In this document: positions 22,560 through 64,000 of the stretch, in pieces
Layout: every line of letters starts with the position of its first letter
Numbering within the stretch: the first letter of the stretch is position 1
Source: Escherichia virus TH47
DNA length: 64,000 nucleotides
Sequence record: MT446416.1
Reading direction: 5' to 3' (one strand)
Notes under the pieces: model-generated
Databases searched by the model: none
The model's input: only the letters and a program-made list of their open reading frames with translations
Told to the model about the DNA's origin: nothing
Program-made: the position numbers and the translations under genes

Positions 22560-22568
22560 ATTTACTCC

Positions 22569-39951: not shown

Positions 39952-40256
39952 TTTATTACCTCTATATCTACATCTGTGCCATAGTAGGAAACGTAACCAT
40001 TATCTGACTTACATTGAATTGATAACTCTGATTCATAGTATGTTACTTTGATCACTGTTAGTACTTTTTCTTCAATTTCTCCCGTTAAATAATCCATTTC
40101 ACGAACACGAACGTTGGTTCCTTTTGGGAGTTCTTGTGCAATTTTATTAACAAGTTCAAAAGCAGCTTCTTCAAGTGTGTGCAACAATTGCAATCTATCT
40201 TGGATATTCATATTATTTCCACCAAGTTGTATCTCGACCACCAGACAAAGATTCAT
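39948..40256 (-). CDS. hypothetical protein
   Basis: 102-aa ORF. Confidence 0.5.
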   Translation of the reverse strand: MNLCLVVEIQLGGNNMNIQDRLQLLHTLEEAAFELVNKIAQELPKGTNVRVREMDYLTGEIEEKVLTVIKVTYYESELSIQCKSDNGYVSYYGTDVDIEVIK

Positions 40257-40902
40257 TGTACTGATGCCTGAAATTAGTATTTGGATTATTTGTCATTGTA
40301 CTAATAAAATCAAATTTAACATTCTCTTGAATGTAATTAATAACATTATCTTTAAATTTAATAGTACTGAAGTCTAAATCTAAATGTTCATACAATACCG
40401 GATGACAAAACTCATGTGTACGCAATGATGGCATGGTATCCTTAATGTATTGCACAGTGTTAATCATTGCATTATATTCAGGCATAGCACGCATCATCAT
40501 TAGCTGAAAGTGTTCTTCCTCTGACATTGATTCATCCAAATCAATAACGACTTCATCATTTTTAGAGTCAAATACTTTAATGTCACTCTTTGTTGGATCA
40601 AGCATAGCCCACTCTGGATACAGGCATGTTTTCCAAAAAGGATTATTGCACTGAAACATACTAATGAGATTTTGATCTTTATCAAAAATAGCAAATCCAA
40701 GATCCGAACTTGGCTGTACTTCACATACACAAATATCGTAAGGAGATTCTTCAGTACTGAATGATCCAACTACATTTGATATATGTGAATATGGAGTTTC
40801 TCTTGATTTTAATTCAAAGGCTCTCTCCATACGATTAACCTGTGGTTGTAATGTAATTACACCCCTCAGTACATATAAAATTCTATCTAAATCTTTAATC
40901 AA
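40213..40902 (-). CDS. FQ-motif family member (dispersed copy)
   Basis: SEEEHFQLMMM motif. Confidence 0.5.
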   Translation of the reverse strand: MIKDLDRILYVLRGVITLQPQVNRMERAFELKSRETPYSHISNVVGSFSTEESPYDICVCEVQPSSDLGFAIFDKDQNLISMFQCNNPFWKTCLYPEWAMLDPTKSDIKVFDSKNDEVVIDLDESMSEEEHFQLMMMRAMPEYNAMINTVQYIKDTMPSLRTHEFCHPVLYEHLDLDFSTIKFKDNVINYIQENVKFDFISTMTNNPNTNFRHQYNESLSGGRDTTWWK

Positions 40903-41477
40903 AATTCTATCCCCGTATCGGTTAATTTCGTTCCGTCCATATACTTAACAATTATTTCAATGCGTCGATCAGTACTCATTTTTTGAAGATCATTGTAGTA
41001 CAATTTAAATTCTTCAAAGAACTCAAGTGGTGGAATATCGTATAAAGTACTAATCTGGAAGTGCTCATGTAATCCAAAATCCAATATATCAATCTTAGGT
41101 ATAAGTCCATCGGCTGCTGCACCTTCTGGTGTACTGCTGTCTGCTACATAAAACATAGAATTACCATGACGCTGGATAACGAATACGCAATCATCTTCAC
41201 TTATATAAATCATATTTCCAAGGCATGGATCGTTATCACACCAATTGTCATGGACGAATTGATCAACTTGAAGTAAATCGTGTATAATTCCTCGACCACT
41301 ATCATCGATTCTAATATGTAAACCAGAATCACTTTTGCTCAACCAGCGGTATTTTGAATCACATCCTGATTCCATAACTGGATATTTTGAAAAATTCATA
41401 TCAGTACCATTATAAAACCAATCGTGCCACTCATTACGCATACTAATCAGCTTAGTACTTAATTCTAATACATTCAT
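40899..41477 (-). CDS. FQ-motif family member (dispersed copy)
   Basis: HEHFQISTLYDIPP motif, closest to 57529-58110. Confidence 0.5.
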   Translation of the reverse strand: MNVLELSTKLISMRNEWHDWFYNGTDMNFSKYPVMESGCDSKYRWLSKSDSGLHIRIDDSGRGIIHDLLQVDQFVHDNWCDNDPCLGNMIYISEDDCVFVIQRHGNSMFYVADSSTPEGAAADGLIPKIDILDFGLHEHFQISTLYDIPPLEFFEEFKLYYNDLQKMSTDRRIEIIVKYMDGTKLTDTGIEF

Positions 41478-52005: not shown

Positions 52006-52863
52006 TTACATTGTTTCTTTTATGTTGCACAACATAGTATTAACTATGTTCATCTTCCCGCCTAACTTGAAGTAATATTCCAATTTATTAATAATATTAC
52101 TTTTTAATATCTCAAATAGTTGATATTCATTTGTTTCGAAACCAAGTTCGAATTGAAAAGTATATAAATTGTTGAATAGATGTACTAAAGATGCATCCGG
52201 TGAATGCATTGTAAATGTGTAGTTGGCACGATAACCAGTACTAATCACTACTTCTGATATATCACCTTTCATGTATATGTCAATATTGTACATCATTGGT
52301 CTGCCTGTTGCAATATCTTTCATGCGAAAGAATGCAGTGCTACGATAAACAACACCTTCTTCTGTAACTTTTTCTTGAATAGTGATATTTGAAACGTCAC
52401 TCTCTTTGAATTTGGACTCGAATGAATGTGTGTAGCTTGTTTTTTCATTATCCGCGTGCATAGTACATGTGTACTTTCCAAAATCATCTCTAGATGTATA
52501 TGATTTATCACTGGCGGTTTTATAGAACGAAACCCCATTGATGTGTTCTTCTTTGTACATCATAGTGTCATTGGATTTGTAGTATGAACAATTAGGTGTT
52601 GAAAGAGATTCAAAAATGTTCACATCATGACAGTAAGAAATAGAAGAATCGCTATACAGTACTACATCACGAATTGCAACTTCTTTTGAAGTACCTTTTT
52701 TGACAGAAATTTGAAAGTCATTGCATGGGAAGATTCTATATCCATCGTATGTATCTGATGTACTGATGCCAAATGGTGTTGGGGAATTTAGAAATTCGTT
52801 GATATGTTCAAGTACTGAATACTTTTTGAAATTGCGAAAGTCAGTGCTATCTAACATATACAA
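52006..52863 (-). CDS. hypothetical protein
   Basis: 285-aa ORF. Confidence 0.5.
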   Translation of the reverse strand: MYMLDSTDFRNFKKYSVLEHINEFLNSPTPFGISTSDTYDGYRIFPCNDFQISVKKGTSKEVAIRDVVLYSDSSISYCHDVNIFESLSTPNCSYYKSNDTMMYKEEHINGVSFYKTASDKSYTSRDDFGKYTCTMHADNEKTSYTHSFESKFKESDVSNITIQEKVTEEGVVYRSTAFFRMKDIATGRPMMYNIDIYMKGDISEVVISTGYRANYTFTMHSPDASLVHLFNNLYTFQFELGFETNEYQLFEILKSNIINKLEYYFKLGGKMNIVNTMLCNIKETM

Positions 52864-52874
52864 TCTCCATAAAT

Positions 52875-52909
52875 TTGGACAAAAAATTAGTCGAGAATAA
52901 ATCTCGACT
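52875..52909 (-). terminator. terminator-like hairpin
   Basis: AGTCGAGA-ATAAA-TCTCGACT 8-bp stem followed on the minus strand by AATTTTTTG; overlaps the 3' end of the small ORF. Confidence 0.4.
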
Positions 52910-53020: not shown

Positions 53021-53494
53021 TTACTCCAAATCGGGATCTTTAACTGTTAGGCTTTCAATATCACTTGCGTAAAGAACTACATTAGTTTGTGTCTCTGATA
53101 CTTTAAAATCATGATAACTATCTTTCACTTTAAAATTATCCAAAATAAACCCTTTACTACAACACATCATGATTTTATCATCTTTGATAGTGTATGTATT
53201 CTTTTTCTTACGCACTTCAGATTGTGGGGTAATATTATCATTATTACGAATAACACAATCAATGTACTCGTCATTTGTACTCATAGGCATACCCATAATA
53301 AACGAATTGCTAGTACTGATTGTTAGTATAAAAACATTAGTATTTGGATTGTGAAAGAAGTCGTGCATAGTTTTACTGCATAAAAACAAACACTGAATTA
53401 TGTCCTTTACATTGAACATTATATCATGAACTTTGAATGCGTCCAACTCTAAAATGTCATCTATCTTTCCATTCTCAACAGTTTTAATCTCCAT
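53021..53494 (-). CDS. hypothetical protein at the downstream end of the 53-64 kb paralog array (no FQ motif seen)
   Basis: 157-aa ORF. Confidence 0.5.
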   Translation of the reverse strand: MEIKTVENGKIDDILELDAFKVHDIMFNVKDIIQCLFLCSKTMHDFFHNPNTNVFILTISTSNSFIMGMPMSTNDEYIDCVIRNNDNITPQSEVRKKKNTYTIKDDKIMMCCSKGFILDNFKVKDSYHDFKVSETQTNVVLYASDIESLTVKDPDLE

Positions 53495-53536
53495 GATCTA
53501 TCCTTGATCTTCAAAGGCACTCCATGTGCACATATA

Positions 53537-54037
53537 TTAGGTCACAGCTTTGTATTTCTCCATTGCTTCGGTGATATTCAATACTGCTTGCGGTACGTCA
53601 CTTTTGTTGTATGCAGTGGTTAGTTTTTCCATGTTATTGAGAAGACTAAGAAACAATGGAAGTACTTCTGCATTGTCACTGAAGTTGCAATCATTGACAG
53701 TACTCAATTGGAATAACTCACCCGCATCAACATTGAGTGTGTTGTATTCTTTAACAATGTTTTCTTCAGTATTGAAGATGTAGAATACAGTCCCCATGTG
53801 GTGTAAGTATACACCAGTTTCATTCTGAATATGACATGGGGTGATTACAATTGCTGTGTTATCAATATTATTTACTATTGTCAAACGCAGACTATGTAAC
53901 CCAAAGATTACAGTACAATCCTTTGTACTGTGTTGGATCTGGTCACTAGTAAAGGAAGACCCACTATATATTTTAGATCCATTTAGTATTTCTTTGATAA
54001 TTTTAAATGAATACTTCATCGAATTAGTTAAAAGCAT
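53537..54037 (-). CDS. FQ-motif family member
   Basis: GELFQLST. Confidence 0.55.
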   Translation of the reverse strand: MLLTNSMKYSFKIIKEILNGSKIYSGSSFTSDQIQHSTKDCTVIFGLHSLRLTIVNNIDNTAIVITPCHIQNETGVYLHHMGTVFYIFNTEENIVKEYNTLNVDAGELFQLSTVNDCNFSDNAEVLPLFLSLLNNMEKLTTAYNKSDVPQAVLNITEAMEKYKAVT

Positions 54038-54437
54038 GAACTTTACCTTTAAGTAAATTAATTAATGTTCGCATAGATTCAGTACTGACAGTACCAAAAT
54101 CAACACCTAAGCACTCGTATTGAAAGAACTCAATAGAATCAATTGAGTCCAAAGGAATATCAACAACCTGATTCCCTATACCAGACATAGTAACATTGCT
54201 TTTATTAATCGTCAAGAAGTTTTTTGTATAAGTGTTAAATTTTAGAGAAATCGCGTCGGGGTGCTTTGTAACAATGCAGTACTGGGAACCGTAGACATAT
54301 AGTACTTTACTTTCACTAAGATACGTTTTAAAAAAATGAATCCCATTGAAGTATTTCTCATTGGCGACCATCGCCGCGATTAGTTCATCTGTTGTTGTTA
54401 ACCTTGTTTCGTTCTTCGTTAAACTGTTGAAAAGCAT
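54024..54437 (-). CDS. FQ-motif family member
   Basis: SIEFFQYE; AAGGT Shine-Dalgarno. Confidence 0.5.
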   Translation of the reverse strand: MLFNSLTKNETRLTTTDELIAAMVANEKYFNGIHFFKTYLSESKVLYVYGSQYCIVTKHPDAISLKFNTYTKNFLTINKSNVTMSGIGNQVVDIPLDSIDSIEFFQYECLGVDFGTVSTESMRTLINLLKGKVHAFN

Positions 54438-54858
54438 AGAATACTACCTTAACCATTTGTAGTGTTTCAGACATTACTTCTGATGAAAATTCAACATCAT
54501 TGAATTTCAGCATAGTGTTCTGTGTAAAGAATGTTGCTTCTAAGTCTTCCAGATTGAAAGGTTCATCAAACAAATTAGTACTGAACATGTCAGTCTTCTT
54601 CTTGTATGTGAACAGGAATTTGGAATTATAACGAAGAACTACTTCATCTTTATTGACCAAAATACGTGCAATGTTCTGACGTGTCAATGTGGTAATGTTT
54701 AAATTGAACACGTTCTTGCGTGTTTCAGTGATATCAACAAAATACCCATCTCCCTGATGGATATTACATCGTACATCCAACCCTTTCTGTACTGTATTGA
54801 ACAGTGCATCTTGAATAAAATAATTTGCTGTATCGATGTTTCCTAAAATGTCTAACAT
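54385..54858 (-). CDS. probable FQ-motif family member (degenerate motif)
   Basis: EATFFTQNT. Confidence 0.45.
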   Translation of the reverse strand: MLDILGNIDTANYFIQDALFNTVQKGLDVRCNIHQGDGYFVDITETRKNVFNLNITTLTRQNIARILVNKDEVVLRYNSKFLFTYKKKTDMFSTNLFDEPFNLEDLEATFFTQNTMLKFNDVEFSSEVMSETLQMVKVVFYAFQQFNEERNKVNNNR

Positions 54859-55370
54859 AACTTCTCCTTGATTGCTGTCATATTTAGAAGAAATTCTTCA
54901 AGCAATTCCTCTGTAACATACTCAACATACCAGAATATCATAATATCTTTTGAAAGTCGAGTATTCTTAAAAATATCTACTAACTCTTTGTAGTACTCAA
55001 GATCATATACATCTTTTATAATTAGTGAGTACTGAAATAGTGATTCTTCAGTTAACTTAAATTCTGGATATAGTAAGTCATTAAATTCTAATGATTCTGA
55101 TTGTACTTTTATTTTAGTGAAGTCATTTGTTAATCCACCATTACATCCATATAATGCAGCGTAATTCACGAACTTGGCTTTTGGATTAAAATCAAGAACA
55201 GTTTCACCATTATATGACAATCGGTGGAACGCCGTGAACTTTGTAATTTGCCACGGTAGCTTAATACCTAAGTCATTTATGTCTTTATTATTGTACATAA
55301 GAACAGTGAATATTTCAGCAATCTTCAATAATAATTTAGTACGTGCTAGTACTGTCATAGGTTCAATCAT
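54852..55370 (-). CDS. FQ-motif family member
   Basis: EESLFQYS. Confidence 0.55.
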   Translation of the reverse strand: MIEPMTVLARTKLLLKIAEIFTVLMYNNKDINDLGIKLPWQITKFTAFHRLSYNGETVLDFNPKAKFVNYAALYGCNGGLTNDFTKIKVQSESLEFNDLLYPEFKLTEESLFQYSLIIKDVYDLEYYKELVDIFKNTRLSKDIMIFWYVEYVTEELLEEFLLNMTAIKEKLC

Positions 55371-55783
55371 TATACACCTTCATATTCATCAAGGAAATCT
55401 TCGATGATCATTTCTGCATCATCCATATGCATAGCATCTACTTCAACAATGCGAACCTTAGATGCATCCCAAATCATATAGCTAGGAACTGTATCTGGTT
55501 CGTAATCGTTCTTGTACTGAACAGCATCGTAACCCTTAGAATTACAATGTTCAATCAGCCCACGCCACTCATCATCACTACCTAAATCTTCCCATAGAAG
55601 CACGTTATCAACATCAACTTCTAATGTATGCAAGTATACTGTATTAGCGTCAACAACGTTCAGTGGGCTTCTCAGCTTGCGTAATGCAGCTTCTAAAGCA
55701 CTGTGCTTGCCTCCCATATGAAGGCCACCATACGGGATATAAAAGTTATCAATTTTTACAGTACTCGCATGATACAGTTTCAT
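55370..55783 (-). CDS. hypothetical protein inside the array (no FQ motif seen)
   Basis: 137-aa ORF. Confidence 0.5.
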   Translation of the reverse strand: MKLYHASTVKIDNFYIPYGGLHMGGKHSALEAALRKLRSPLNVVDANTVYLHTLEVDVDNVLLWEDLGSDDEWRGLIEHCNSKGYDAVQYKNDYEPDTVPSYMIWDASKVRIVEVDAMHMDDAEMIIEDFLDEYEGV

Positions 55784-55792
55784 AATTCATTC

Positions 55793-56377
55793 CTATTTCA
55801 GTACTTTGACCAGGGCTTTAACCGCTGTTTCAAGTTGTGCAAAGTCGTTGATTGTAAGATAATGAATACCCAATGTACTCATTTCTGAATCTATTTTACT
55901 ATACAAATCGAACATGTCAAGTAGATATTGATATGTATATGACTCCGATGACACGCATGATTCTTGAAATAGACGTTCTTCCATATCATTTACTACTTCG
56001 TCATTCACGTCTCGAATCACACCATCTTTGTATGTGTAGTAAATCTCATCCCATTCATCTGATAAGTGGAATAGTAAAGGCTTACCATTAAACATCTCAA
56101 GGTCATATGCATTGATTTCACTCAATAACATATCATCAGGATCAGGTGTGAAATCGAATTGGGCGAGTGACGAACCATCATAATCTTTAAGGAATACACC
56201 AATAGCATTCAATTTAACTTCGCCATAATTGCCATTCTTGAACTTCACACGAATATTAATATCAATGTTTTGAACAGTATCATCATCTTGGAACTGATAA
56301 TCAATTTTATACTTTTCCCAAAGTTTTTTAATATCTTTGAAGTACTTAATTTTACTTTCTATTTCTTTAAAGTTCAT
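55793..56377 (-). CDS. FQ-motif family member
   Basis: EERLFQES. Confidence 0.55.
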   Translation of the reverse strand: MNFKEIESKIKYFKDIKKLWEKYKIDYQFQDDDTVQNIDINIRVKFKNGNYGEVKLNAIGVFLKDYDGSSLAQFDFTPDPDDMLLSEINAYDLEMFNGKPLLFHLSDEWDEIYYTYKDGVIRDVNDEVVNDMEERLFQESCVSSESYTYQYLLDMFDLYSKIDSEMSTLGIHYLTINDFAQLETAVKALVKVLK

Positions 56378-56969
56378 CTGGAACCACCATCTCTTGTATG
56401 TTCTTGCATTTTTTCATTGCACAATTAGTATTTAAAATGATAGAGTACTTATGTAATGATTTAATTTTATAACACTCATTAAGTACTGAAATGATGCCCC
56501 ATAACTCTTCTACATCAATAGTGATAGGTTCACTAGTACTAAGTTGCATTAGTGCTGCTTCCACATCATCTTTGTTATTGATTTTGAACTGTATGCCACG
56601 TTTCAGTATTTTGGTTTTTGGATTATACTCTGCCATTACATCACCTTCAGGGTAACCCTCGTGTAATAATAATGTTGTCTCATAATCTCCACAATTGAAA
56701 TTAATTTCATCATAGTCAGGAACACAAATCATTCCTTCACCATATTGATTATCTACTGATTCGATTGTTAAAATACGCTGATGTTCATTACTCAGGATAA
56801 TAGAATCGTGCCAGTACTGCGTAGTGAATTTACTACGTTTCTTTTGACAGCACATACTTGACATGGGGCCATACTTTTTATATAGGGACTTCTTGAATGC
56901 TATCGCACCAGGAGCCACCTTAATAACTTCTCGAATTAGGTCAATAGCTTCTTGATAACTTTTTCTCAT
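56367..56969 (-). CDS. FQ-motif family member (variant)
   Basis: EAALMQLST; start moved to the ATG at 56967-56969 (ATGA overlap with the upstream stop). Confidence 0.45.
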   Translation of the reverse strand: MRKSYQEAIDLIREVIKVAPGAIAFKKSLYKKYGPMSSMCCQKKRSKFTTQYWHDSIILSNEHQRILTIESVDNQYGEGMICVPDYDEINFNCGDYETTLLLHEGYPEGDVMAEYNPKTKILKRGIQFKINNKDDVEAALMQLSTSEPITIDVEELWGIISVLNECYKIKSLHKYSIILNTNCAMKKCKNIQEMVVPDEL

Positions 56970-57517
56970 TTGTCGTACCCATATAAAATATGATCTAGTG
57001 TGCATTGTACTTCTTCATGGAAGAACAACGGGTAAATTTGTATCAATTTTTCTTTAAGTTCAAGTGAATGACATAGTTCCAGTGATTTAATACAATCTTC
57101 GTATTGAACTAAGCTATGTAATGTACTTAACTGAAAATGTTGTTCTTCAGAGTAAGCTAAATCATATACCAAATTATCATTTAATAGATTTGATTTAGTT
57201 GAAGGATCAAGTACTGTGTTGCTATGACCTACCCAGAAAAAAGCATTGGTGTTCATATTATTACAACCCCAACCTGTCCCCATTTTCTGGTGAATAGCAA
57301 AGACACAACTATCATAGAGATTAATACCAAGACGTTCTTCGTTGACATAAATCGTAACACCATCGATTGTCATGGTTATTTGGAAACGCATTGAACCTTC
57401 ACTTCGTGAACGTGCACAGAAGCCAAGATAACGGTTAATAATTGTATTGATTTTATCTGCCCATCCTTCCACATCTTTGGATGCACATAATTTAAAAAGA
57501 TCATGACTTTGGTTCAT
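56966..57517 (-). CDS. FQ-motif family member
   Basis: EEQHFQLST. Confidence 0.55.
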   Translation of the reverse strand: MNQSHDLFKLCASKDVEGWADKINTIINRYLGFCARSRSEGSMRFQITMTIDGVTIYVNEERLGINLYDSCVFAIHQKMGTGWGCNNMNTNAFFWVGHSNTVLDPSTKSNLLNDNLVYDLAYSEEQHFQLSTLHSLVQYEDCIKSLELCHSLELKEKLIQIYPLFFHEEVQCTLDHILYGYDK

Positions 57518-57528
57518 GTAGTTCTCCG

Positions 57529-58110
57529 TTAATCAAGCATAAGTGGCATCATCGCCCATATCTTTTTCATAATCATATCTTCAGTAAAAACAAACGTTTT
57601 AGGTGCAGTATATGATATTGACAACCCAAATGGAAGTACGATTGCATCATCAATTATATTATGAATATCAAACCATGTTTTTACACAATCATATGGTGGA
57701 AGTTCATGTATTGTACTTAACTGAAAGTATTGTTCTTCGCCAAAAGTACTGCAATCAATATCACAAATTTTAGTGAAATGATGATTCCATTTAGATATAA
57801 TACTGTTTTTATTATTGGACATATTAGTTCTATGCATGAAACCATTTCTGCTAATATAATTTGATATTGCGTTTTCTTCAATATCATTGCTTATTTTAAA
57901 ATTCATGTAAAAGTTGTAGTACACACTCGACGATTCTTTGAATTTTAAATGAAAATAACGATTGTTATTAATTTCCATTTCAATACAAAACACATCTGAA
58001 TCAAAACGATTAAACTTGTAATCGTTGTCTTCAGGTAGAGTCTGTAATTTTTTCATAACACCAAGCATAGGGTGCACTAAGCTTCTAATAAAATCATTAG
58101 TTATTTTCAT
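57529..58110 (-). CDS. FQ-motif family member
   Basis: EEQYFQLST. Confidence 0.55.
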   Translation of the reverse strand: MKITNDFIRSLVHPMLGVMKKLQTLPEDNDYKFNRFDSDVFCIEMEINNNRYFHLKFKESSSVYYNFYMNFKISNDIEENAISNYISRNGFMHRTNMSNNKNSIISKWNHHFTKICDIDCSTFGEEQYFQLSTIHELPPYDCVKTWFDIHNIIDDAIVLPFGLSISYTAPKTFVFTEDMIMKKIWAMMPLMLD

Positions 58111-58603
58111 AGTATTCCTTTAGAACTTTAAATGATTCAACAATACTATCTTGTGTGTAATTAGAACTATATACAATTGCATTTGATTTGATTGACCACA
58201 GATATGACATAAAGGTTATAACACTACTGCATGAACTTAATGTATTGTTTTGGAATTCATTTTCTTCAATGTTATCAGTACTGGTATTGATGAATTGGAT
58301 AGTATCTTGTTTCTGATTAGACATTGAAACTAAAGTACAATCAGTATAAGGAGTGTACAAAAACGTCTCATTACTAATTGAACTATCATTAGTATATGAT
58401 GGTTTGGTAATATAAATCAAACGCATGATATCACGCTCAAGACCCGATTTACTACTTTCCACTAAAGAAATCATATCTATATTTTTCATATGATCAACAT
58501 TGACATGGAACTTTTTGTTGAGAATTACATCTTTTGGAGAATTTTTATATGAAGATAAGATCTCATACATCTCAACTAATTCTCGTGCATTTAATAAACT
58601 CAT
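58097..58603 (-). CDS. FQ-motif family member
   Basis: EENEFQNNT. Confidence 0.5.
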   Translation of the reverse strand: MSLLNARELVEMYEILSSYKNSPKDVILNKKFHVNVDHMKNIDMISLVESSKSGLERDIMRLIYITKPSYTNDSSISNETFLYTPYTDCTLVSMSNQKQDTIQFINTSTDNIEENEFQNNTLSSCSSVITFMSYLWSIKSNAIVYSSNYTQDSIVESFKVLKEYYENN

Positions 58604-59028
58604 GTTTTGTCTCTTAATGAAAGAATATACTTAGTATAAACTGAAACTGAAATATGATTATATTTCATCATTAATTTATACACATAAGAAGCTAGTACTA
58701 AATCGTAAATTAATTTAGTATCATACAGTACTCCGTATTGTAAAGCAAGTGAATCAATATCATCTTTACTTTCAATATCCAGAAATGTACCGAAAATTGT
58801 AGTACCGTGAAGATGAAAAGTGGAATTAATGCAATCAATGCATTGATTGTCCAACAGTGTAGATGCAGATGCCCTTTGTGAATCCCAAATTGTCAGTACA
58901 TGTTTTTCATCAACAAACAAATCTATCCATGTTTTGTGTCGTTGCTTTTTTTGTGTTTTATAATTTTCTGGATTTGAAAGTGTAGTGTCAATTATATCCC
59001 ATATGTATAAGCATTCATCTCTTGTCAT
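58600..59028 (-). CDS. hypothetical protein inside the array (motif weak or absent)
   Basis: 142-aa ORF. Confidence 0.5.
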   Translation of the reverse strand: MTRDECLYIWDIIDTTLSNPENYKTQKKQRHKTWIDLFVDEKHVLTIWDSQRASASTLLDNQCIDCINSTFHLHGTTIFGTFLDIESKDDIDSLALQYGVLYDTKLIYDLVLASYVYKLMMKYNHISVSVYTKYILSLRDKT

Positions 59029-59606
59029 TATAGCACCTTATCCATTGCTGCATTTAATGCTTTTAAACGATCAACATTCAAAGTATTGAAGATGTACGTT
59101 CCTAAAATGTGGAAATCGAATTGGTTCTTTTTGTATGTGTGATAAATTAAACTACAAAAAACAACAGTACTAAGAACCTCTTCAGGTATAACGGTGCTCA
59201 TCTGAAACAGTTCTTCATCAACTGTACTTGATTCTGGATTGATAGCTTTTAACTCATACTCTTTATCACCGAATAGTACTTTAATATTATATAAAACACC
59301 AACAGTACTAATATGAAATGGATGGTGTGAAAAACTTCCATCATCATTAATTTGGATATCGGATCTAATCTCGCACTCTTCATTACTTTTACTATTATTT
59401 TTTACAATACAAATATTCCTGGCACCAGAAATAGTAAGAATACCGTGATCGTAATATTCTTTGGACAAACATTTAGATGAAAATGACACATCACGAATGA
59501 GGTAATGTTTGTTAATTTCTTTGGCACTACCAACAATGTGTAGCATCTTTGTACTGATATCATATAGCTGTTGGTGTCGGGCTGTCATATAACTATAAGC
59601 GTTCAT
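59028..59606 (-). CDS. FQ-motif family member
   Basis: DEELFQMST. Confidence 0.55.
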   Translation of the reverse strand: MNAYSYMTARHQQLYDISTKMLHIVGSAKEINKHYLIRDVSFSSKCLSKEYYDHGILTISGARNICIVKNNSKSNEECEIRSDIQINDDGSFSHHPFHISTVGVLYNIKVLFGDKEYELKAINPESSTVDEELFQMSTVIPEEVLSTVVFCSLIYHTYKKNQFDFHILGTYIFNTLNVDRLKALNAAMDKVL

Positions 59607-60177
59607 ATGTATCCTTGATGTTTTTGATTGCCGTGTGTAGCTCTTTTAATGTATCGGATTCACAGTTAATGAACTTACTATACATTACCAATTCACCAGT
59701 GTCAATAGCTTTTGCAGTTTCATAGCAAAGCATCATGTACTCAAACTCCTTGAAGTTGTCAAGTACTGATCTCTGGAAAATGTATGCTTCACGAATGTCT
59801 TCACTTTGATCTAGTTCTGGTGGAATTTCCAAATATGTATCATCCTCTACGTCATCAAAATTAGATTCAACAATTCGATTAATATCTTCGTGTAAAGCAT
59901 TGACAAATATCATGTTTGGGGTAATGGAACCGATTTGCTCACCATGCCTTGATGTACGGATATACATTGCCATAGTATCCCATGAACCTTTTTTTGTCGT
60001 TCCATAATCGTAAACTTTATAAGACTCCAGTGTCACTGAACCAAAACGATATGGTAATTTGCTTTCAACTTTAAGACGATAATTTCCAATAGGATCATGA
60101 ACGGTAATGTTGTGCTTATCAGATAGTTCTGCAATGTCATGCATCAATTTCATAATTTGAATGTGTTCAGCTTGCAT
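59593..60177 (-). CDS. FQ-motif family member
   Basis: EAYIFQRS. Confidence 0.5.
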   Translation of the reverse strand: MQAEHIQIMKLMHDIAELSDKHNITVHDPIGNYRLKVESKLPYRFGSVTLESYKVYDYGTTKKGSWDTMAMYIRTSRHGEQIGSITPNMIFVNALHEDINRIVESNFDDVEDDTYLEIPPELDQSEDIREAYIFQRSVLDNFKEFEYMMLCYETAKAIDTGELVMYSKFINCESDTLKELHTAIKNIKDTYERL

Positions 60178-60740
60178 TATAAGTCCTCTAATTTAACAGG
60201 TACATGTTCATTAATGAACTTCTTAAGAGCCAGTACTAGATCTTCTAATTCTTCTGTACTGAATTTTAAAATAGTTTTAAAGAATATCAATTCATTTCTT
60301 TCTATAATCTTTGGAATTTCATATGCTAACATAAGATTGCGAACAGTGTAAGCGTTATGTATGAGGTTCGCATTGAATAAAAGTACATCGTACTCGTCTT
60401 TTTTAATTTTATAATTGTACTCTTCAATTACTTCATGTGTGTATGTATTCTTATAAGCAATTTTATTTTTATGAAAGTTATAACCAACAGTAACACTTTC
60501 ATCATAAAATGTAGAACGATAATCTTGTTTTCTATCACCCGACGAAATGATGTGTAATGCTGTGTATTTGTCCTCAACATCTAACTCAATGTTTGCATAA
60601 CTGTTAACAGTTTCATTCTTTAGGACATTAATGTTATATTTCTCATTAATTTTAATGTGCTGGCGTGAACCATTATCTTCAATGAACTTAAAACAATGCT
60701 TTATCAACAATGTGATTTCTTTAATTAATTCAGTACTCAT
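60177..60740 (-). CDS. probable FQ-motif family member (degenerate motif)
   Basis: DVLLFNANL. Confidence 0.45.
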   Translation of the reverse strand: MSTELIKEITLLIKHCFKFIEDNGSRQHIKINEKYNINVLKNETVNSYANIELDVEDKYTALHIISSGDRKQDYRSTFYDESVTVGYNFHKNKIAYKNTYTHEVIEEYNYKIKKDEYDVLLFNANLIHNAYTVRNLMLAYEIPKIIERNELIFFKTILKFSTEELEDLVLALKKFINEHVPVKLEDL

Positions 60741-60827
60741 ATCTTCTCCTGTACTCTGTTAAAAGCGATTATAACACACCTGAATGCTCATGTAAAGCAC
60801 TAAACACAAAAAGACCCATAAGGGTCT

Positions 60828-61346
60828 TTATTTTGGTAAAACGCGGTCAAGGTACGCTAGATCCTCATCTTGGAGGTACGTTCCATCTATTGTTATGTAA
60901 TAGTTCTTAGGGATATCACAACCTATCTTCTCGTAAATTTGCATACATGATATCACATCTTCATCACAAATGGTACTCAATTGAAACAGTACTTCATCAG
61001 TTAGCGGCACAATATCATGTTTAGATATGGGGTTGGTATTTTCATTCAAAACAACATCAAACAAACTGGGAGTATTCTTTGACGAAATGTAACGATGCTT
61101 ACTACGAATTACCATTCTCGATAGTGAAATACTGGAACTCCATCTTGGGTCCACATCTTCGTATGATAGCGAAACTAACATTTCATAATAATCTTGGAAT
61201 TTCATTGATGCATAATATGTTTTTTCCTCACCGTACATTCCAAATGATTTGAATTCAATGTCACCTACATTGTGTGTATCACTCGCACTATTCACGAAAT
61301 TTAACAGACTGTTGATTAGTCTGATTAGAATATCATCTTTATTCAT
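60828..61346 (-). CDS. FQ-motif family member
   Basis: DEVLFQLST; start moved to the ATG at 61344-61346 (track start is TTG). Confidence 0.5.
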   Translation of the reverse strand: MNKDDILIRLINSLLNFVNSASDTHNVGDIEFKSFGMYGEEKTYYASMKFQDYYEMLVSLSYEDVDPRWSSSISLSRMVIRSKHRYISSKNTPSLFDVVLNENTNPISKHDIVPLTDEVLFQLSTICDEDVISCMQIYEKIGCDIPKNYYITIDGTYLQDEDLAYLDRVLPK

Positions 61347-61896
61347 TATCAGATAACTCCCTGTGCATGTCGTATAAATCTCGAAAGTCCTGATAGAAAT
61401 CTTTTTCTTCAAGAATATCTTTTAAACTAGGAATCTCAACCATAATCTCATCGATATCAGTTTCAATAGTAAAACCTGATTTATAATTTTGTAAGAGATA
61501 ACTAAAAGCAACAAGATAAAGAATTTCATTTGGTTTATGAATTAACATGTGTTGGAACATAACTGATTCTAAATCAGATTCAGTACTAAGGTCAGCATAA
61601 CATGTATCGTTGGTGTCAATTCGTACTTTACTTGAATTTGGATTCCATGTAAAGCAATGTGTTCCAACTGTTCCCAAACATCCTACTCTTGTACTATCAT
61701 TTGTTCCCAAAAAGATATCAAAATACGTTTCATCTGTATAATCGTATTTTTGTACTTTACCTTTTTTAAGGCATAAATCATTATCCTTTCGAAAAGTTTT
61801 AGATGATAGTGTATCAATGATGCACATTAATGTTTTTGCAAATGCAATACAATGACGTAATTCAAGTCTATGGAAATTATAATTAGTAAAATTCAT
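61339..61896 (-). CDS. FQ-motif family member (variant)
   Basis: ESVMFQHML. Confidence 0.5.
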   Translation of the reverse strand: MNFTNYNFHRLELRHCIAFAKTLMCIIDTLSSKTFRKDNDLCLKKGKVQKYDYTDETYFDIFLGTNDSTRVGCLGTVGTHCFTWNPNSSKVRIDTNDTCYADLSTESDLESVMFQHMLIHKPNEILYLVAFSYLLQNYKSGFTIETDIDEIMVEIPSLKDILEEKDFYQDFRDLYDMHRELSDNE

Positions 61897-62435
61897 AATT
61901 GTACCTTCAATATTTTATCAGCAATTGATATAACCTTGTCATTGAATACATTACCAATCTCAATTCTTATATACATCGCAGGTGGAATCTTTCCCTGAAG
62001 TGCATAATATGTTTGTATACCTAAGTACTCATTATTTGATAATGAAAATTTGATTCTCTCCATATCTATGTCTGATGTTGGTAAATCTAGTAGTTCATGG
62101 TTGTAGTCAACATTTTCAGTGTATATCTGTTCGACGTAATTTGAATAGTCACTACTAATGTAGATACTATCATCACGGATAATTACTTTATAATTAGAAG
62201 GTTTAAACTTATCTTTAGGAGAAAAGAAGACATCATCTATCTTCTCTTCTCGGACACCGAATAACAATTTACCATCGTACTTTACATCAAGCATACTATC
62301 TAGAATAGTAATTACACAATGATCATCAATGTTATGACGTAAAGAACGAGTCTTGTATTTTGGGTTAATGAAAATTTTCATTAATTTTATACAAATGTCA
62401 GTAATGCATTTTACATTATCATTTTCTATGTACAT
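61893..62435 (-). CDS. probable FQ-motif family member (degenerate motif)
   Basis: MERIKFSLS. Confidence 0.45.
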   Translation of the reverse strand: MYIENDNVKCITDICIKLMKIFINPKYKTRSLRHNIDDHCVITILDSMLDVKYDGKLLFGVREEKIDDVFFSPKDKFKPSNYKVIIRDDSIYISSDYSNYVEQIYTENVDYNHELLDLPTSDIDMERIKFSLSNNEYLGIQTYYALQGKIPPAMYIRIEIGNVFNDKVISIADKILKVQL

Positions 62436-62913
62436 CGTAAATCCTCTTTAATTCTTTTACATTTTTAATGAATACTTTCATTGCAGAAATCTCAAAAGCT
62501 AATGATTTAAATTTGCAGTACTTTTTAAAGTACGACATAATGAATAGCATCTTGAGTTCTTTTTCTGTGTAAATTAAAGTATTTTGAAAGTAACTTTCTT
62601 CTGATAAATCATCAATAAAAGGATATATAACTCCATTTGTTCTCAAGAACATGATACCTTCACTCCATGATCTAAATGAAATGTAATCAGTCTTACCACA
62701 TTCATATAAGGAGTTTATCATTCCGTCAATCATTAAGGAGAACTCAATACTGTATCCTAATCGTTGACACTTGTATCTCTTATCTTCTTTCTTTGTAATT
62801 ACGAAGTGGCGACCCAATGAGTCTTTGTTATCGAAAATGAAATCAACTGTCTCTAAACACTCCTTAGCGAACTTCATAGTTTCTCTGTACTTTCTGTTCA
62901 TTAGTCTCTCCAA
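62419..62913 (-). CDS. FQ-motif family member
   Basis: EESYFQNT. Confidence 0.55.
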   Translation of the reverse strand: MERLMNRKYRETMKFAKECLETVDFIFDNKDSLGRHFVITKKEDKRYKCQRLGYSIEFSLMIDGMINSLYECGKTDYISFRSWSEGIMFLRTNGVIYPFIDDLSEESYFQNTLIYTEKELKMLFIMSYFKKYCKFKSLAFEISAMKVFIKNVKELKRIYDVHRK

Positions 62914-63314
62914 ACTTTACCAGGGAAGTGTTTCTCGTAGAACTCATCATCACTTAACATATAATCAGGTGTTTCTACTTCTATGGGTTTGTAGAATGTT
63001 TCTGGGATGTGTGTAATTTTATTTGGTTGTACTTTATGTTCGCGTAAAACCTTCTGTATAGCTCCTAGGCGTTGTAAATCAATACAGGTGGGCAGAACTA
63101 AGCTGTACTGAAATAGCTCGTCAGGGGTCATTATAGACACATCCTTAGCTTGTTTGATTTTATTGTTGGTATCAATGAATATATCAAATCCAAGTACTGC
63201 ATTATAGCTTACATAGGTTGTTTTGTTTTTGTCAATAGCTGCACTTAAACTATATCCATATATTCCGTATCGGTCAACCATGCATCGTTGCATAATTTTA
63301 ATCATTTCGAACAT
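62901..63314 (-). CDS. FQ-motif family member
   Basis: PDELFQYS. Confidence 0.55.
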   Translation of the reverse strand: MFEMIKIMQRCMVDRYGIYGYSLSAAIDKNKTTYVSYNAVLGFDIFIDTNNKIKQAKDVSIMTPDELFQYSLVLPTCIDLQRLGAIQKVLREHKVQPNKITHIPETFYKPIEVETPDYMLSDDEFYEKHFPGKVWRD

Positions 63315-63663
63315 AATTTACCTCGTATGTGTTATAATTCCACGCTTTAACACTATCCATTTGTATATCCTGAACTTCATGGAAATATTTAAGTACCTTC
63401 TGGTATTCCATTAGTTCGTACACATCTTCAGTACTGACAGTACTCTCCTGAAACAATTCCTCTTCTGATAAAGTACTATAATCAGGGATTTTTATTTCAG
63501 AATATATCTCATTTATATATGAATCATTTTGGTAAATCTGTAGATAAAACTGATTATATTCAGGGATATAGGTTACGAAATGGTTCTCGTTGAATTCATA
63601 TCTTGAAGCAAAGTATTCATTGCCATCCGTCATGTACTGAATTGTTGTAGTATTATTATGCAT
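63298..63663 (-). CDS. FQ-motif family member
   Basis: EEELFQEST. Confidence 0.55.
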   Translation of the reverse strand: MHNNTTTIQYMTDGNEYFASRYEFNENHFVTYIPEYNQFYLQIYQNDSYINEIYSEIKIPDYSTLSEEELFQESTVSTEDVYELMEYQKVLKYFHEVQDIQMDSVKAWNYNTYEVNYVRND

Positions 63664-64000
63664 TTAAATAATCCACACATTTATAGTATACTGCTAAATC
63701 TAAAAAGAATCGTTGTTTGTATTTGTAATGATGAAGTAGTGCACCATAAAGTAATATAGCATTAAGTACTTTTGCATCATGAATACAAGACCATTGGAAG
63801 TACATTTCTTCAGTCATAAAAACTAACTCACTATAAGGGACAAACATTGCATCTCTAAATGTATCAATGTTAATCTTTAAATCAGACCCTTGGCAATATG
63901 AAATATATTCACCTTTGTAATGAAAGTCATTATCGTCAAAGTACTCAGCATATACTTGATTGCCCCTATTATTTTTAAAGGCAAGTCTTCCTTTGGTTGA
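63656..64000 (-). CDS. FQ-motif family member, 3' part (gene probably starts beyond the window end)
   Basis: EEMYFQWS; the frame stays open from the ATG at 63847 up to position 64000 with no stop, and in the other members the motif sits at least 55 residues from the N-terminus. Confidence 0.45.
   Translation of the reverse strand, partial: STKGRLAFKNNRGNQVYAEYFDDNDFHYKGEYISYCQGSDLKINIDTFRDAMFVPYSELVFMTEEMYFQWSCIHDAKVLNAILLYGALLHHYKYKQRFFLDLAVYYKCVDYLNA

What the first reader, a model, noticed from the sequence alone, without database searches (positions are those of the whole stretch)
53021..64000. Tandem array of 22 co-oriented paralogous genes sharing a short [DE]-E-x-hydrophobic-F-Q-x-[ST] motif
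About 11 kb is occupied by 22 consecutive small genes (120-210 aa) with overlapping start/stop codons. At least 17 carry a motif such as EEQYFQLST, EEQHFQLST, DEVLFQLST, DEELFQMST, EESYFQNT, EEELFQEST, EEMYFQWS, PDELFQYS, EESLFQYS, EERLFQES or GELFQLST, embedded in otherwise highly diverged sequence. The codons encoding the motif differ between copies (TTT CAG, TTC CAA, TTT CAA), so conservation is at the protein level. The motif superficially resembles 3C/TEV-type protease recognition sites (E-x-x-Y/L-F-Q followed by S/G), which raises the possibility of a shared processing or recognition site, but it could equally be the conserved core of a small fold. A large, rapidly diversifying family of this kind is what arms-race loci (anti-defence or host-takeover factors) look like. 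I cannot assign it to any described family from the sequence alone.
Basis: partly seen in the sequence, partly recalled or inferred. Interest (0 to 1): 0.8.

Follow-up and report, generated by a model that had tools for sequence, protein, structure and literature searches.

The report
Giant paralog family in jumbo phages
This block of small genes is one end of a gene family of about 54 copies, found only in RaK2-like jumbo phages, whose acidic non-virion proteins share one short conserved core motif and have no known relatives, fold or function; they are most likely a diversified set of early host-interaction proteins.

Summary
The window comes from an Asteriusvirus jumbo coliphage (97% nt identity to fEgEco12). 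The 22 tightly packed genes on the minus strand are real and under purifying selection. Nineteen belong to one family: 13 by leave-one-out profile comparison and 6 through their orthologues or variant motifs. Three (g01, g04, g06) are unrelated conserved genes.

The motif [ST]-E-E-x-[YL]-F-Q-x-S-[TL] is far above chance and is conserved at the protein level. In fEgEco12 the family spans about 29 kb with about 54 copies. It also sits at the same position in Klebsiella phage RaK2 (at least 29 copies), Erwinia phage Hallingskeid (at least 24) and Cronobacter phage GAP32 (about 8). Nothing outside this clade matched among 1.84 billion proteins, Pfam, NCBIfam, PDB or fold libraries.

AlphaFold models of modest confidence place the motif in a short helix, the best-predicted part of an alpha/beta domain. 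The residue after Gln is mostly Tyr, Leu or Glu, and some orthologue lineages have lost FQ, so a 3C/TEV-type cleavage site is unlikely.

The proteins are acidic and absent from the phAPEC6 virion proteome. Their genes sit behind sigma-70-like promoters next to the terminal repeat. They diverge much faster than neighbouring genes, yet keep one-to-one orthologues. The best reading is an undescribed early host-interaction repertoire. The function is inferred, not shown.

The parts
53021..53494 (-). g01: last gene of the block, NOT a family member; a conserved acidic protein of 157 aa
   Evidence: hhalign against the family gives probability 0.2%. It is 84% identical in A4, 62% in RaK2 and 58% in Hallingskeid, with omega 0.03.
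53537..54037 (-). g02: family member (DAGELFQLST)
   Evidence: HMM E 5e-10; leave-one-out hhalign 78-81%; orthologues in RaK2 and Hallingskeid keep the motif.
54024..54437 (-). g03: probable member with variant motif (IEFFQYEC); start codon uncertain (annotated start would be about 54371)
   Evidence: hhalign 14-21%, above the negative controls (under 4%). [DE]-[FL]-FQ-Y-E-C is kept in the Asteriusvirus orthologues, and the positional counterparts in RaK2 (NEIDFFQYTC) and Hallingskeid (NEYDFFQFET) carry a related variant. It is the most divergent gene against PBECO4 (41% identity, omega 0.58).
54385..54858 (-). g04: NOT a family member; a conserved 157-aa protein
   Evidence: hhalign below 1%. 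It is 60% identical in A4, 42% in RaK2 and 38% in Hallingskeid.
54852..55370 (-). g05: family member (TEESLFQYSL)
   Evidence: HMM E 2e-13; hhalign 92%.
55370..55783 (-). g06: embedded NON-family gene, conserved across the whole RaK2-like clade; annotated 'putative ADP-ribosyl transferase' in two records, which I could not verify
   Evidence: hhalign 0.1%. tblastn finds it in 74 phage records, including GAP32, CBB, Eneladusvirus and Vibrio phages. Invariant residues are LYHxST / GGLHxGG / VQYxNxYEPD. The annotation appears in ph0011 and Muenster. No Pfam or PDB match.
55793..56377 (-). g07: family member (MEERLFQESC)
   Evidence: HMM E 2e-14; hhalign 89%.
56367..57005 (-). g08: probable member with the motif degenerated to EAALMQLST; the likely true start gives 56367-56969
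   Evidence: hhalign 20-29%; the A4 orthologue reads ALFQMG at the same place; start as annotated in fEgEco12.
56966..57517 (-). g09: family member (SEEQHFQLST)
   Evidence: HMM E 4e-15; hhalign 89%; pairs with its neighbour g10 by phmmer at 3e-6.
57529..58110 (-). g10: family member (GEEQYFQLST)
   Evidence: HMM E 3e-18; hhalign 96%.
58097..58603 (-). g11: family member (IEENEFQNNT)
   Evidence: hhalign 52-58%; the A4-only profile gives E 4e-5; the RaK2 orthologue YEELEFQYST is HMM-positive.
58600..59028 (-). g12: family member with degenerate motif (SLAL-QYGVL)
   Evidence: hhalign 54-63%; the A4 orthologue carries ATIFQLSTLY and is HMM-positive.
59028..59606 (-). g13: family member (VDEELFQMST)
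   Evidence: HMM E 3e-10; hhalign 96%.
59593..60177 (-). g14: probable member (REAYIFQRSV)
   Evidence: HMM E 0.001-0.002; hhalign 44-50%; the motif is kept in all orthologues.
60177..60740 (-). g15: probable member, tandem duplicate of g14, with Gln replaced (DVLLFNANL)
   Evidence: phmmer against g14 gives 6e-6; hhalign with its orthologue profile 29%.
60768..60829 (-). The only sizeable intergenic gap inside the block: a terminator-like hairpin followed by a sigma-70-like promoter (TTTACA-17-TGTTATAAT)
   Evidence: Similar promoter-like gaps occur elsewhere in the array in fEgEco12. These are consensus matches only.
60828..61412 (-). g16: family member (TDEVLFQLST); the likely true start gives 60828-61346
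   Evidence: HMM E 2e-21; hhalign 97%; annotated start.
61339..61896 (-). g17: family member (LESVMFQHML)
   Evidence: HMM E 4e-19; hhalign 96% over 132 columns; still detected when the motif is masked.
61893..62435 (-). g18: family member that has lost FQ (DMERIKFSLS)
   Evidence: hhalign 93-97%; orthologues in A4 (ETLFQYSL) and RaK2 (EEMFQLSL) keep the motif.
62419..62913 (-). g19: family member (SEESYFQNTL), the protein that was modelled; the only basic member here (pI 9.1)
   Evidence: HMM E 2e-20; hhalign 97%; AlphaFold models; pI.
62901..63314 (-). g20: family member, short form (TPDELFQYSL)
   Evidence: HMM E 2e-13; hhalign 95%.
63298..63663 (-). g21: family member, short form (SEEELFQEST)
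   Evidence: HMM E 2e-14; hhalign 97%.
63656..64000 (-). g22: family member (TEEMYFQWSC), cut by the window end; 160 aa in fEgEco12
   Evidence: hhalign 99%; RaK2 ORF419 is its orthologue (31% identity, E 2e-4).
40213..40902 (-). Outlying family member (SEEEHFQLMM), 229 aa, next to the RNA ligase gene
   Evidence: HMM E 1e-12.
40899..41477 (-). Outlying family member (GLHEHFQIST), 192 aa
   Evidence: HMM E 8e-13.
52889..52909 (-). Terminator-like hairpin just downstream of the last gene of the block
   Evidence: consensus scan only.

Best explanation
The block is the promoter-distal end of a very large, clade-specific paralogous family. It has about 54 copies spanning about 29 kb in the closest relative fEgEco12 (7.7% of the 374.7-kb record), roughly 8 to 30 copies in other RaK2-like jumbo phages, and grew by tandem duplication.

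The proteins are small (100-230 aa), mostly acidic and soluble, and are not part of the virion. They share one alpha/beta domain: an N-terminal helix, a beta-meander of variable length, then the motif helix and two C-terminal helices at a fairly fixed distance from the C-terminus.

The motif [ST]-E-E-x-[YL]-F-Q-x-S-[TL] is read as a structural element of that domain: a Ser/Thr-x-x-Glu helix-capping box plus a buried aromatic residue that joins the sheet to the C-terminal helices. It is not read as a cleavage site.

The genes lie just inside the 21-kb terminal repeat that carries dozens of sigma-70 promoter cassettes. They are split into a few long, translationally coupled operons, each with its own sigma-70-like promoter, so they are probably made early by host RNA polymerase.

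Each paralogue is kept as a one-to-one orthologue but changes 3-4 times faster at non-synonymous sites than neighbouring genes. The most likely role is therefore a repertoire of binders built on one scaffold, each aimed at a different host or defence protein (host takeover or anti-defence).

Shown: the family, its extent, its motif statistics, the selection regime and the absence from virions. Inferred: the fold details, early timing and the binding function.
For: Family is real. Iterated HMMs find 141 ORFs across the window and four related loci with no reversed-sequence decoy at E<10. Leave-one-out hhalign gives 78-99% for 13 window genes against under 4% for controls.

Extent and age. The family continues beyond the window in fEgEco12. 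It is syntenic in RaK2 (29 HMM hits), Hallingskeid (24 hits at E<0.01) and GAP32 (6-8). Metagenomic contigs show the same arrays.

Clade restriction. Only 24 hits at E<=1e-3 among 1.84 billion representatives. Nearly all are orthologues of these genes, and the few divergent ones lie in similar metagenomic arrays.

Tandem duplication. Adjacent pairs are the closest relatives of each other (g09/g10, g14/g15).

Motif as structure. It has the highest pLDDT (about 89) as a short helix in two AlphaFold runs. The motif-to-C-terminus distance is 54 +/- 10 aa, against 108 +/- 26 aa from the N-terminus. Omega is lowest at the motif (0.16). BFVD Foldseek returns only family paralogues at 14-20% identity with TM 0.40-0.56.

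Soluble and acidic. Median pI is 4.85, and 88% of members have pI below 6. No hydrophobic segment was found in the 22 window proteins.

Not in the virion. None of phAPEC6 gp402c-gp466c is among the 62 virion proteins found by mass spectrometry (PMC7247149).

Early context. There is a 20,993-bp terminal repeat (PMC13070987) with about 40 promoter cassettes, and sigma-70-like promoters sit in the array gaps. The analogous regions in CBB and PA5oct are predicted (CBB) or measured (PA5oct) to be early.

Fast but constrained evolution..
Against: - There is no direct evidence for early expression, for any binding partner or for any phenotype.
- The structural models are of modest confidence (mean pLDDT 62-66, pTM 0.60-0.62; the beta region is below 50). 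I could not inspect burial of Phe and Gln, so the structural role of the motif is inferred.
- Most detectable sequence similarity sits in the motif itself, so a common fold across all members is not proven.
- Classic arms-race loci show gain and loss of genes. Here the order and number of genes are stable across about 32 genomes.
- The strict invariance of a polar Gln in most members would also fit a functional site.
Confidence: 0.55

Rival explanations
1. Adaptor library. The conserved FQ helix is a shared docking element recognised by one common partner, either a phage protein such as the embedded g06 or a host protease, chaperone or modifying enzyme. The variable rest of each paralogue would recruit a different target, as in F-box or BTB adaptor families.
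For: - Phe and Gln are invariant and Ser nearly so across 148 members that are otherwise 10-25% identical.
- Conserved charged and polar residues (EE, Q, S, D) surround the motif.
- g06 is embedded near the same end of the array in all four genera examined.
Against: - The motif is predicted to lie in an ordered helix that packs in the domain, not in a flexible linear motif.
- FQ is lost in some orthologue lineages that remain under selection.
- g06 homologues occur without the family in Vibrio phage helene.
- No partner was identified.
Confidence: 0.17
2. Shared proteolytic processing site. A Gln-specific (3C/TEV-like) protease cuts each protein after FQ and releases a C-terminal piece of about 50 aa.
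For: Superficial resemblance to E-x-x-Y-F-Q|S/G. A few members read EEGYFQGS in relatives.
Against: - P1' is Tyr, Leu, Glu, Gln or Asn in 114 of 148 members.
- The motif lies in the best-ordered predicted helix, and conserved core positions continue on both sides.
- The motif is lost in g08, g12, g15 and g18.
- No protease domain was found among the 22 proteins. The only protease in the phAPEC6 virion proteome table is the prohead core scaffold and protease gp227c. T4-type prohead proteases cut after Glu (own knowledge).
- The proteins are absent from virions.
Confidence: 0.04
3. An expanded enzyme family in which E, E, Q and S of the motif form an active or ligand-binding site, with paralogues differing in substrate.
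For: Invariant polar residues in a family that is otherwise hypervariable. RNA-repair and modification enzymes are encoded nearby (RNA ligase, polynucleotide kinase, Dam, cytidyltransferase).
Against: - No similarity to any catalytic domain by sequence or fold.
- The S/T-E-E pattern is a textbook helix N-cap (own knowledge).
- The motif decays in several conserved orthologue groups.
- Roughly 54 divergent copies of a small acidic enzyme of 100-200 aa would be unusual.
Confidence: 0.08
4. Intracellular structural or assembly components (for example a replication or compartment scaffold, or assembly chaperones for the many fibres of these phages) that form hetero-oligomers through the conserved helix.
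For: Many stoichiometrically coupled genes in translationally coupled operons. One-to-one conservation of every paralogue. Long terminal helices in the model.
Against: - The location is among predicted early genes and sigma-70 promoters, not in the structural module.
- Members are absent from virions.
- Copy number varies from about 8 (GAP32) to about 54, which is hard to reconcile with a fixed assembly.
- Surfaces evolve fast.
Confidence: 0.06

Closest known systems
Lineage-specific expansion of a zinc-ribbon protein in Bacillus phage G (about 35 copies; Iyer et al. 2021, PMC7824862)
   Same: A single small domain amplified to dozens of copies within one jumbo-phage genome, with unknown or only guessed function.
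   Different: That expansion uses a recognisable fold (zinc ribbon), occurs in one phage and was called 'unprecedented' at about 35 copies. The FQ family has no recognisable fold, reaches about 54 copies, and is shared at the same genomic position by at least four genera.
Blocks of small early 'host-takeover' genes next to or inside terminal repeats (T5 pre-early genes, the SPO1 host-takeover module, T4 immediate-early small ORFs: own knowledge; PA5oct early genes in the long terminal repeat, PMC7318152)
   Same: Position next to the terminal repeat, co-orientation, host-type promoters, small acidic non-virion proteins of unknown function.
   Different: Those blocks consist mostly of unrelated genes. 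Here one domain accounts for about 54 genes. Early timing is measured in those systems but only inferred here.
Multigene families of large eukaryotic DNA viruses (ASFV MGF360/505, poxvirus ankyrin and BTB-kelch families; own knowledge)
   Same: Tandem paralogue arrays near genome ends, a conserved scaffold with divergent surfaces, and copy number that differs between lineages.
   Different: Those families show frequent gain and loss between strains and have known roles in immune evasion and host range. The FQ array is stable gene for gene within Asteriusvirus, and its function is unknown. There is no sequence relationship.
TEV / 3C protease recognition sites (E-N-L-Y-F-Q|G/S; L-E-V-L-F-Q|G-P)
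   Same: An acidic residue upstream, an aromatic or aliphatic residue then Phe-Gln, and Ser two residues later.
   Different: P1' is bulky or charged rather than Gly or Ser, the context is helical and ordered, no cognate protease is known, and the motif is dispensable in some lineages.
PHROGs v4 families (phrog_16362, phrog_12674, phrog_9317 and 21 others)
   Same: Each window gene matches a PHROG made of its own orthologues (E 1e-18 to 1e-121).
   Different: PHROGs does not join them: 24 separate families, all of 'unknown function'. The superfamily relationship and the motif are not recorded there.

Membership tests
3C/TEV-type protease cleavage site | Gln at P1 followed by a small residue (Gly/Ser/Ala) at P1' | tested here: not met
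   The residue after Gln is Tyr 45, Leu 27, Glu 19, Gln 13 or Asn 10 of 148. Ser is at P2', not P1'.
3C/TEV-type protease cleavage site | Site lies in an exposed, flexible linker between folded units | tested here: not met
   AlphaFold puts it in a short helix with the highest pLDDT of the protein. Conserved hydrophobic positions continue on both sides. Caveat: the model is of modest overall confidence.
3C/TEV-type protease cleavage site | A cognate chymotrypsin-fold Cys/Ser protease is encoded by the phage or host | not tested
   Only the 22 proteins were scanned with Pfam, with no hit. The whole phage genome was not scanned. The phAPEC6 virion table lists only a prohead core scaffold and protease.
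3C/TEV-type protease cleavage site | Cleaved products observed | not testable with these tools
   Needs mass spectrometry of infected cells.
Any curated protein family (Pfam-A, NCBIfam, PADLOC) or solved structure | Significant profile or fold match | tested here: not met
Lineage-specific expanded paralogue family of phage accessory genes | Members related to each other beyond chance | tested here: met
   HMM iterations give 141 hits and no decoys. Leave-one-out hhalign gives 78-99% for 13 genes against under 4% for controls. Motif statistics.
Lineage-specific expanded paralogue family of phage accessory genes | Tandem, co-oriented arrangement, with neighbours the closest relatives of each other | tested here: met
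   (g09/g10, g14/g15). Runs of near-identical motifs in adjacent fEgEco12 genes g116-g119 and g111-g114.
Lineage-specific expanded paralogue family of phage accessory genes | Restricted to one clade, with copy number differing between lineages | tested here: met
   Only RaK2-like phages and metagenomic relatives. About 54 copies in fEgEco12, at least 29 in the RaK2 fragment, at least 24 in the Hallingskeid fragment and about 8 in the GAP32 fragment.
Early host-takeover / anti-defence effectors | Expressed early from host-RNA-polymerase promoters | tested here: inconclusive
   Sigma-70-like promoters sit in the array gaps, and the array is next to a promoter-rich terminal repeat. The overall promoter count is not above the shuffle expectation. 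No transcript data exist for these phages.
Early host-takeover / anti-defence effectors | Not a virion component | tested here: met
   The phAPEC6 orthologues gp402c-gp466c are absent from the 62-protein virion proteome (PMC7247149).
Early host-takeover / anti-defence effectors | Faster protein evolution than neighbouring genes | tested here: met
   Against A4, members g07-g22 are 25-42% identical versus g01 84%, g06 89%, Dam 92%. Omega is 0.16-0.31 versus 0.07.
Early host-takeover / anti-defence effectors | Presence/absence variation between close relatives | tested here: not met
   The order is collinear one-to-one in 30 or more genomes, and all 22 genes have reciprocal best hits in A4.
Early host-takeover / anti-defence effectors | Binds or inhibits a host or defence protein | not testable with these tools
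   Needs interaction and phenotype assays.

The most novel reading that the evidence does not exclude
The FQ helix is a common handle read by a single conserved partner. The partner could be the co-embedded, clade-wide g06 protein annotated as an ADP-ribosyltransferase, or a host protease or chaperone. The roughly 54 paralogues would then form a combinatorial adaptor library that points one activity at dozens of different host or defence targets: a phage counterpart of F-box or BTB substrate-receptor families, and the largest such repertoire known in a bacterial virus.
Probability: 0.12. Interest if true: 0.85.

Novelty: new member of a known kind. Interest (0 to 1): 0.6.

Why it matters
About 8% of a 350-380 kb phage genome, in a group of coliphages now proposed for therapy, is spent on a single protein domain that no database recognises.

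If these proteins are host-interaction factors, they form a ready-made panel of about 54 naturally diversified binders against E. coli, Klebsiella or Erwinia proteins or defence systems. The copy-number series (about 8 in GAP32, about 30 in RaK2, about 54 in Asteriusvirus) offers a natural experiment on why jumbo genomes grow.

The family also gives annotators one profile that names 40-55 'hypothetical proteins' per genome. At about 54 copies it exceeds the roughly 35-copy expansion in Bacillus phage G that was called unprecedented.

Tried and rejected
1. Pairwise phmmer among the 22 proteins gave only 3 significant pairs. Pairwise methods are too weak, so I moved to profiles.
2. Pfam, NCBIfam, PADLOC and PDB sequence searches found nothing.
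4. Three homologous-protein searches and the full 1.84-billion-protein HMMER scan returned almost only orthologues. These alignment-based profiles were too diffuse to report RaK2 members at library-wide E-values. The RaK2, Hallingskeid and GAP32 members were found by fetching syntenic loci and running a local HMM.
6. I tested whether the flanking ~285-aa paralogues, which carry FQ dipeptides, or other neighbours belong to the family. They do not (hhalign below 4%).
7. I tested g06 as an ADP-ribosyltransferase. Pfam at E<=10, PDB phmmer and a PDB profile search were all negative, so the annotation stays unverified.
8. I looked for fusions of the FQ domain to known domains in longer members and found none. 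The MCP-domain protein inside the A4 array is an unrelated insertion.
9. A DNA-level repeat as the source of the motif is rejected: Ser uses both the AGY and TCN codon classes, and the Phe and Gln codons are mixed.
10. Literature on Asteriusvirus, RaK2, CBB, phAPEC6 and fEgEco12, plus the jumbo-phage comparative review, gives only general remarks on paralogues and no description of this family or motif.

Full report
**Source and setting.** The window is 97% identical in nucleotide sequence to Escherichia phages fEgEco12, Ecwhy_1 and CMSTMSU, and 83-87% identical to PBECO4, 121Q, phAPEC6 and G17. These are jumbo myoviruses of the genus Asteriusvirus with genomes of 350-385 kb. Thirty of 35 matching records cover at least 80% of the region in the same gene order, and every gene under the match is annotated 'hypothetical protein'. 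All genes of interest lie on the minus strand.

**The observation.** From 53021 to the window end there are 22 consecutive minus-strand ORFs of 121-212 aa. The last is cut by the window edge and is 160 aa in fEgEco12. Neighbours mostly overlap by 1-17 nt or are separated by fewer than 15 nt. The one real gap is 60741-60827.

- Fifteen proteins carry Phe-Gln at a comparable place, about two thirds of the way along the chain.
- FQ.[ST][TLCV] occurs in 12 of 22, against 0.17 expected from residue shuffles (maximum 3 in 2000 trials) and 3 of 70 in the other proteins of the window.
- Codons vary (TTT 9 / TTC 6; CAA 8 / CAG 7). Across 148 family members the conserved Ser uses both AGY (82) and TCN codons, so selection acts on the protein and not on a DNA or RNA element.

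**Are the 22 genes paralogues?** Pairwise comparison is nearly blind here: only three pairs reach E<0.01, and two of them are adjacent genes (g09/g10, g14/g15). Profiles are decisive.

- An HMM seeded on motif-bearing proteins and iterated over all ORFs of the window and four related loci converged on 141 ORFs, with not one reversed-sequence decoy at E<10 in any round.
- In leave-one-out profile-profile comparisons, each gene plus its orthologues was compared with the family minus those sequences. Thirteen window genes scored 78-99% (g02, 05, 07, 09, 10, 13, 16-22).
- Six more are intermediate (20-63%: g03, 08, 11, 12, 14, 15). Unrelated neighbours used as controls scored below 4%.
- Orthologues settle most of the intermediate cases. 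g12 (L-Q) and g18 (KF) have A4 and RaK2 orthologues with a canonical ...FQLST or ...FQYSL. g08 (ALMQLST) has ALFQMG in A4. g11's RaK2 orthologue is HMM-positive. g15 (FN) is a tandem duplicate of g14.
- g01, g04 and g06 score below 1%, and they are far better conserved between genera than any family member. They are different genes that sit inside the block.

One caveat applies. With the 16 residues around FQ masked, a profile built from phage A4 alone recovers only 2 window genes. Even so, N-terminal and C-terminal segments on their own score above every decoy in about 40% of members. The distance from the motif to the C-terminus is much more constant (54 +/- 10 aa) than the distance to the N-terminus (108 +/- 26 aa).

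- In fEgEco12 the same motif continues through genes g132 to g085. Together with two outliers beside the RNA ligase gene (window 40213-41477), this gives about 54 members over record positions 27.3-56.3 kb, of which 44 are positive by HMM alone.
- In Klebsiella phage RaK2 (Alcyoneusvirus; RNA ligase 64% identical), the syntenic region lies upstream of the same pair of ~285-aa genes and of Dam, cytidyltransferase, RNA ligase and polynucleotide kinase. It holds 29 HMM hits with [ST]EExxFQYST.
- Erwinia phage Hallingskeid has 24 hits at E<0.01 and about 33 motif-bearing genes.
- Cronobacter phage GAP32 (Mimasvirus) has only about 8, flanking its g06 orthologue.
- Metagenomic contigs that carry divergent members are again arrays.
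- A full HMMER pass over 1.84 billion representative proteins found 24 hits. Almost all are orthologues of these genes, and the few divergent ones lie in similar metagenomic arrays. tblastn with the family consensus hit only Escherichia and Salmonella Asteriusvirus records.

The family is therefore ancestral to the RaK2-like clade and was expanded to different degrees in its branches.

**What the proteins look like.** The consensus is an N-terminal amphipathic helix, several strands marked by conserved Tyr/Phe, a D-[LIV] pair, then S/T-E-E-x-[YL]-F-Q-x-S-[TL]-[VI]-x-D, an amphipathic helix and a C-terminal helix.

- Two AlphaFold2 runs on g19 (36 and 64 sequences) agree on that topology, with mean pLDDT 62 and 66 and pTM 0.60 and 0.62.
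- The motif is a short helix (residues 105-111) with the best local confidence, about 89. The beta region, especially residues 61-89, is poorly defined.
- S/T-x-x-E at a helix start is a classical capping box (own knowledge).
- The proteins are acidic (median pI 4.85; 88% below pH 6). No hydrophobic segment was found in the 22 window proteins.
- Pfam, NCBIfam, PADLOC and PDB sequence searches are all negative. PHROGs files the 22 genes under 24 separate families of unknown function.

**Selection.** Against PBECO4, every gene of the block has dN/dS below 1 (0.03-0.58, mostly 0.1-0.35), like its neighbours.

- Pooled over members, omega is 0.31 in the N-terminal part, 0.22 before the motif, 0.16 at the motif and 0.25 after it. 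It is 0.07 for g01, g04 and g06.
- Against the more distant Asteriusvirus A4, all 22 genes have collinear reciprocal best hits. Members g07-g22 are only 25-42% identical, while g01, g06 and Dam are 84-92%.
- Between genera, members are 21-33% identical where detectable, against about 60% for g01, g06 and RNA ligase.

So each paralogue is individually maintained, but its protein sequence changes several times faster than its surroundings. There is no sign of gain or loss within the genus.

**Expression context.** fEgEco12 has experimentally supported 20,993-bp direct terminal repeats (PMC13070987).

- That repeat contains about 40 nearly identical cassettes, each with a strong sigma-70 promoter and a GC-rich hairpin in front of a tiny gene.
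- A run of about 28 overlapping ~70-aa genes follows, and then the FQ array, all in one orientation.
- Inside the array the few intergenic gaps carry sigma-70-like promoters, some preceded by terminator-like hairpins: window 60829-60768, and fEgEco12 locus positions L001 38112-38185, L001 26592-26650 and L002 28519-28577. A terminator-like hairpin follows g01. These are consensus matches, and the overall count of promoter-like sites is not above the shuffle expectation.
- For the relatives CBB and PA5oct, the comparable regions of small unknown genes were predicted (CBB) or measured (PA5oct) to be early.
- None of the phAPEC6 orthologues (gp402c-gp466c) is among the 62 proteins detected in virions by mass spectrometry.

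**Interpretation.** The best-supported reading is a clade-specific, tandemly expanded family of small acidic intracellular proteins built on one alpha/beta scaffold. The motif is the most constrained structural element of that scaffold. The proteins are probably produced early by host RNA polymerase.

A conserved scaffold, fast-changing remainder, retention of each paralogue and lineage-dependent copy number together fit a repertoire of binders against different host or defence proteins. That function is inferred, not shown.

- the residue after Gln is bulky or charged in 114 of 148 members;
- the site is in the best-ordered helix;
- several lineages have lost FQ yet stay under selection;
- no suitable protease is known.

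The remaining rivals cannot be excluded without a structure and interaction data. They are a shared docking handle for one partner, an enzyme family, or an intracellular assembly.

**Comparison with the literature.** The RaK2 paper notes only that about 10% of its gene products are paralogues. The CBB paper notes that 22 ORFs have paralogues. The fEgEco12, Sharanji, UE-S1 and phAPEC6 papers do not mention the family. The comparative survey of 224 jumbo phages calls a roughly 35-copy zinc-ribbon expansion in Bacillus phage G unprecedented and does not describe this one.

I therefore rate the finding as an undescribed member of a known kind of feature, namely lineage-specific paralogue expansions among phage accessory genes. 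It is notable for its size, its orphan fold and its conservation across genera.

Noticed in passing
L002 (fEgEco12 record) 1-21000: The 20,993-bp direct terminal repeat carries about 40 nearly identical cassettes, each in front of a tiny gene of 40-130 aa: a strong sigma-70 promoter (for example AAAGTACTTGCAAACTATGTTTAAAGGCGTATAATG) plus a GC-rich hairpin in the 5' leader.
   Followed up: partly
L002 21091-27280; also L010 (RaK2) 22337-22715: A second tandem array of about 28 overlapping ~70-aa genes lies immediately upstream of the FQ family. Several carry an 'x-G-T-N-F-Q-x-x-Y' motif, and RaK2 has the same motif. It is not detected by the FQ-family HMM, and any relationship between the two is unknown.
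   Followed up: no
window 55370-55783 (-): g06 is a 137-aa protein embedded in the array and conserved across the whole RaK2-like clade (39-95% identity in 74 phage records, including Vibrio phages that lack the FQ family). Its invariant residues are LYHxST, GGLHxGG and VQYxNxYEPD. Two GenBank records call it 'putative ADP-ribosyl transferase', but Pfam and PDB searches gave no support.
   Followed up: partly
window 53021-53494 (-) and 54385-54858 (-): g01 and g04 are not family members. They keep 58-62% and 38-42% identity respectively to RaK2 and Hallingskeid at the same relative positions. They are conserved unknown genes interleaved with the fast-evolving family.
   Followed up: partly
window 49963-50826 (-) and 52006-52863 (-): Two paralogous ~285-aa genes sit just downstream of the array in Asteriusvirus, RaK2 and Hallingskeid. 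They are also hyperdivergent (33-37% identity to phage A4). One keeps a P-D-[DE]-x-x-F-Q-[FL]-M motif, but hhalign shows no relation to the FQ family.
   Followed up: partly
L004 (phage A4) 16149-17561: Phage A4 has a 470-aa protein with a methyl-accepting chemotaxis protein signalling domain (Pfam MCPsignal, E 4e-37) inserted in the middle of its FQ array. It is absent from the window phage.
   Followed up: partly
window 60768-60829 (-) and 52889-52909 (-): A terminator-like hairpin followed by TTTACA-17-TGTTATAAT sits in the only real gap of the block, and another terminator-like hairpin lies after the last gene. This suggests the array is cut into several operons.
   Followed up: partly
window 54024-54437, 56367-57005, 60828-61412, 62419-62913: The longest-ORF starts (two of them TTG) overlap the upstream gene by up to 74 nt. 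GenBank annotations of relatives use later ATG starts (about 54371, 56969, 61346 and 62901), which restore the usual 1-17 nt overlaps.
   Followed up: partly
proteins P0001, P0004, P0012, P0022 and others: Many orthologues are deposited as '[Escherichia coli] hypothetical protein' on contigs of 347-361 kb. These are complete jumbo-phage genomes sitting in bacterial assemblies.
   Followed up: no
window 40213-41477 (-): Two family members lie about 12 kb away from the main array, directly upstream of the RNA ligase gene. Hallingskeid has members at the equivalent place (L011 31027-32245), so this detached pair is old.
   Followed up: partly
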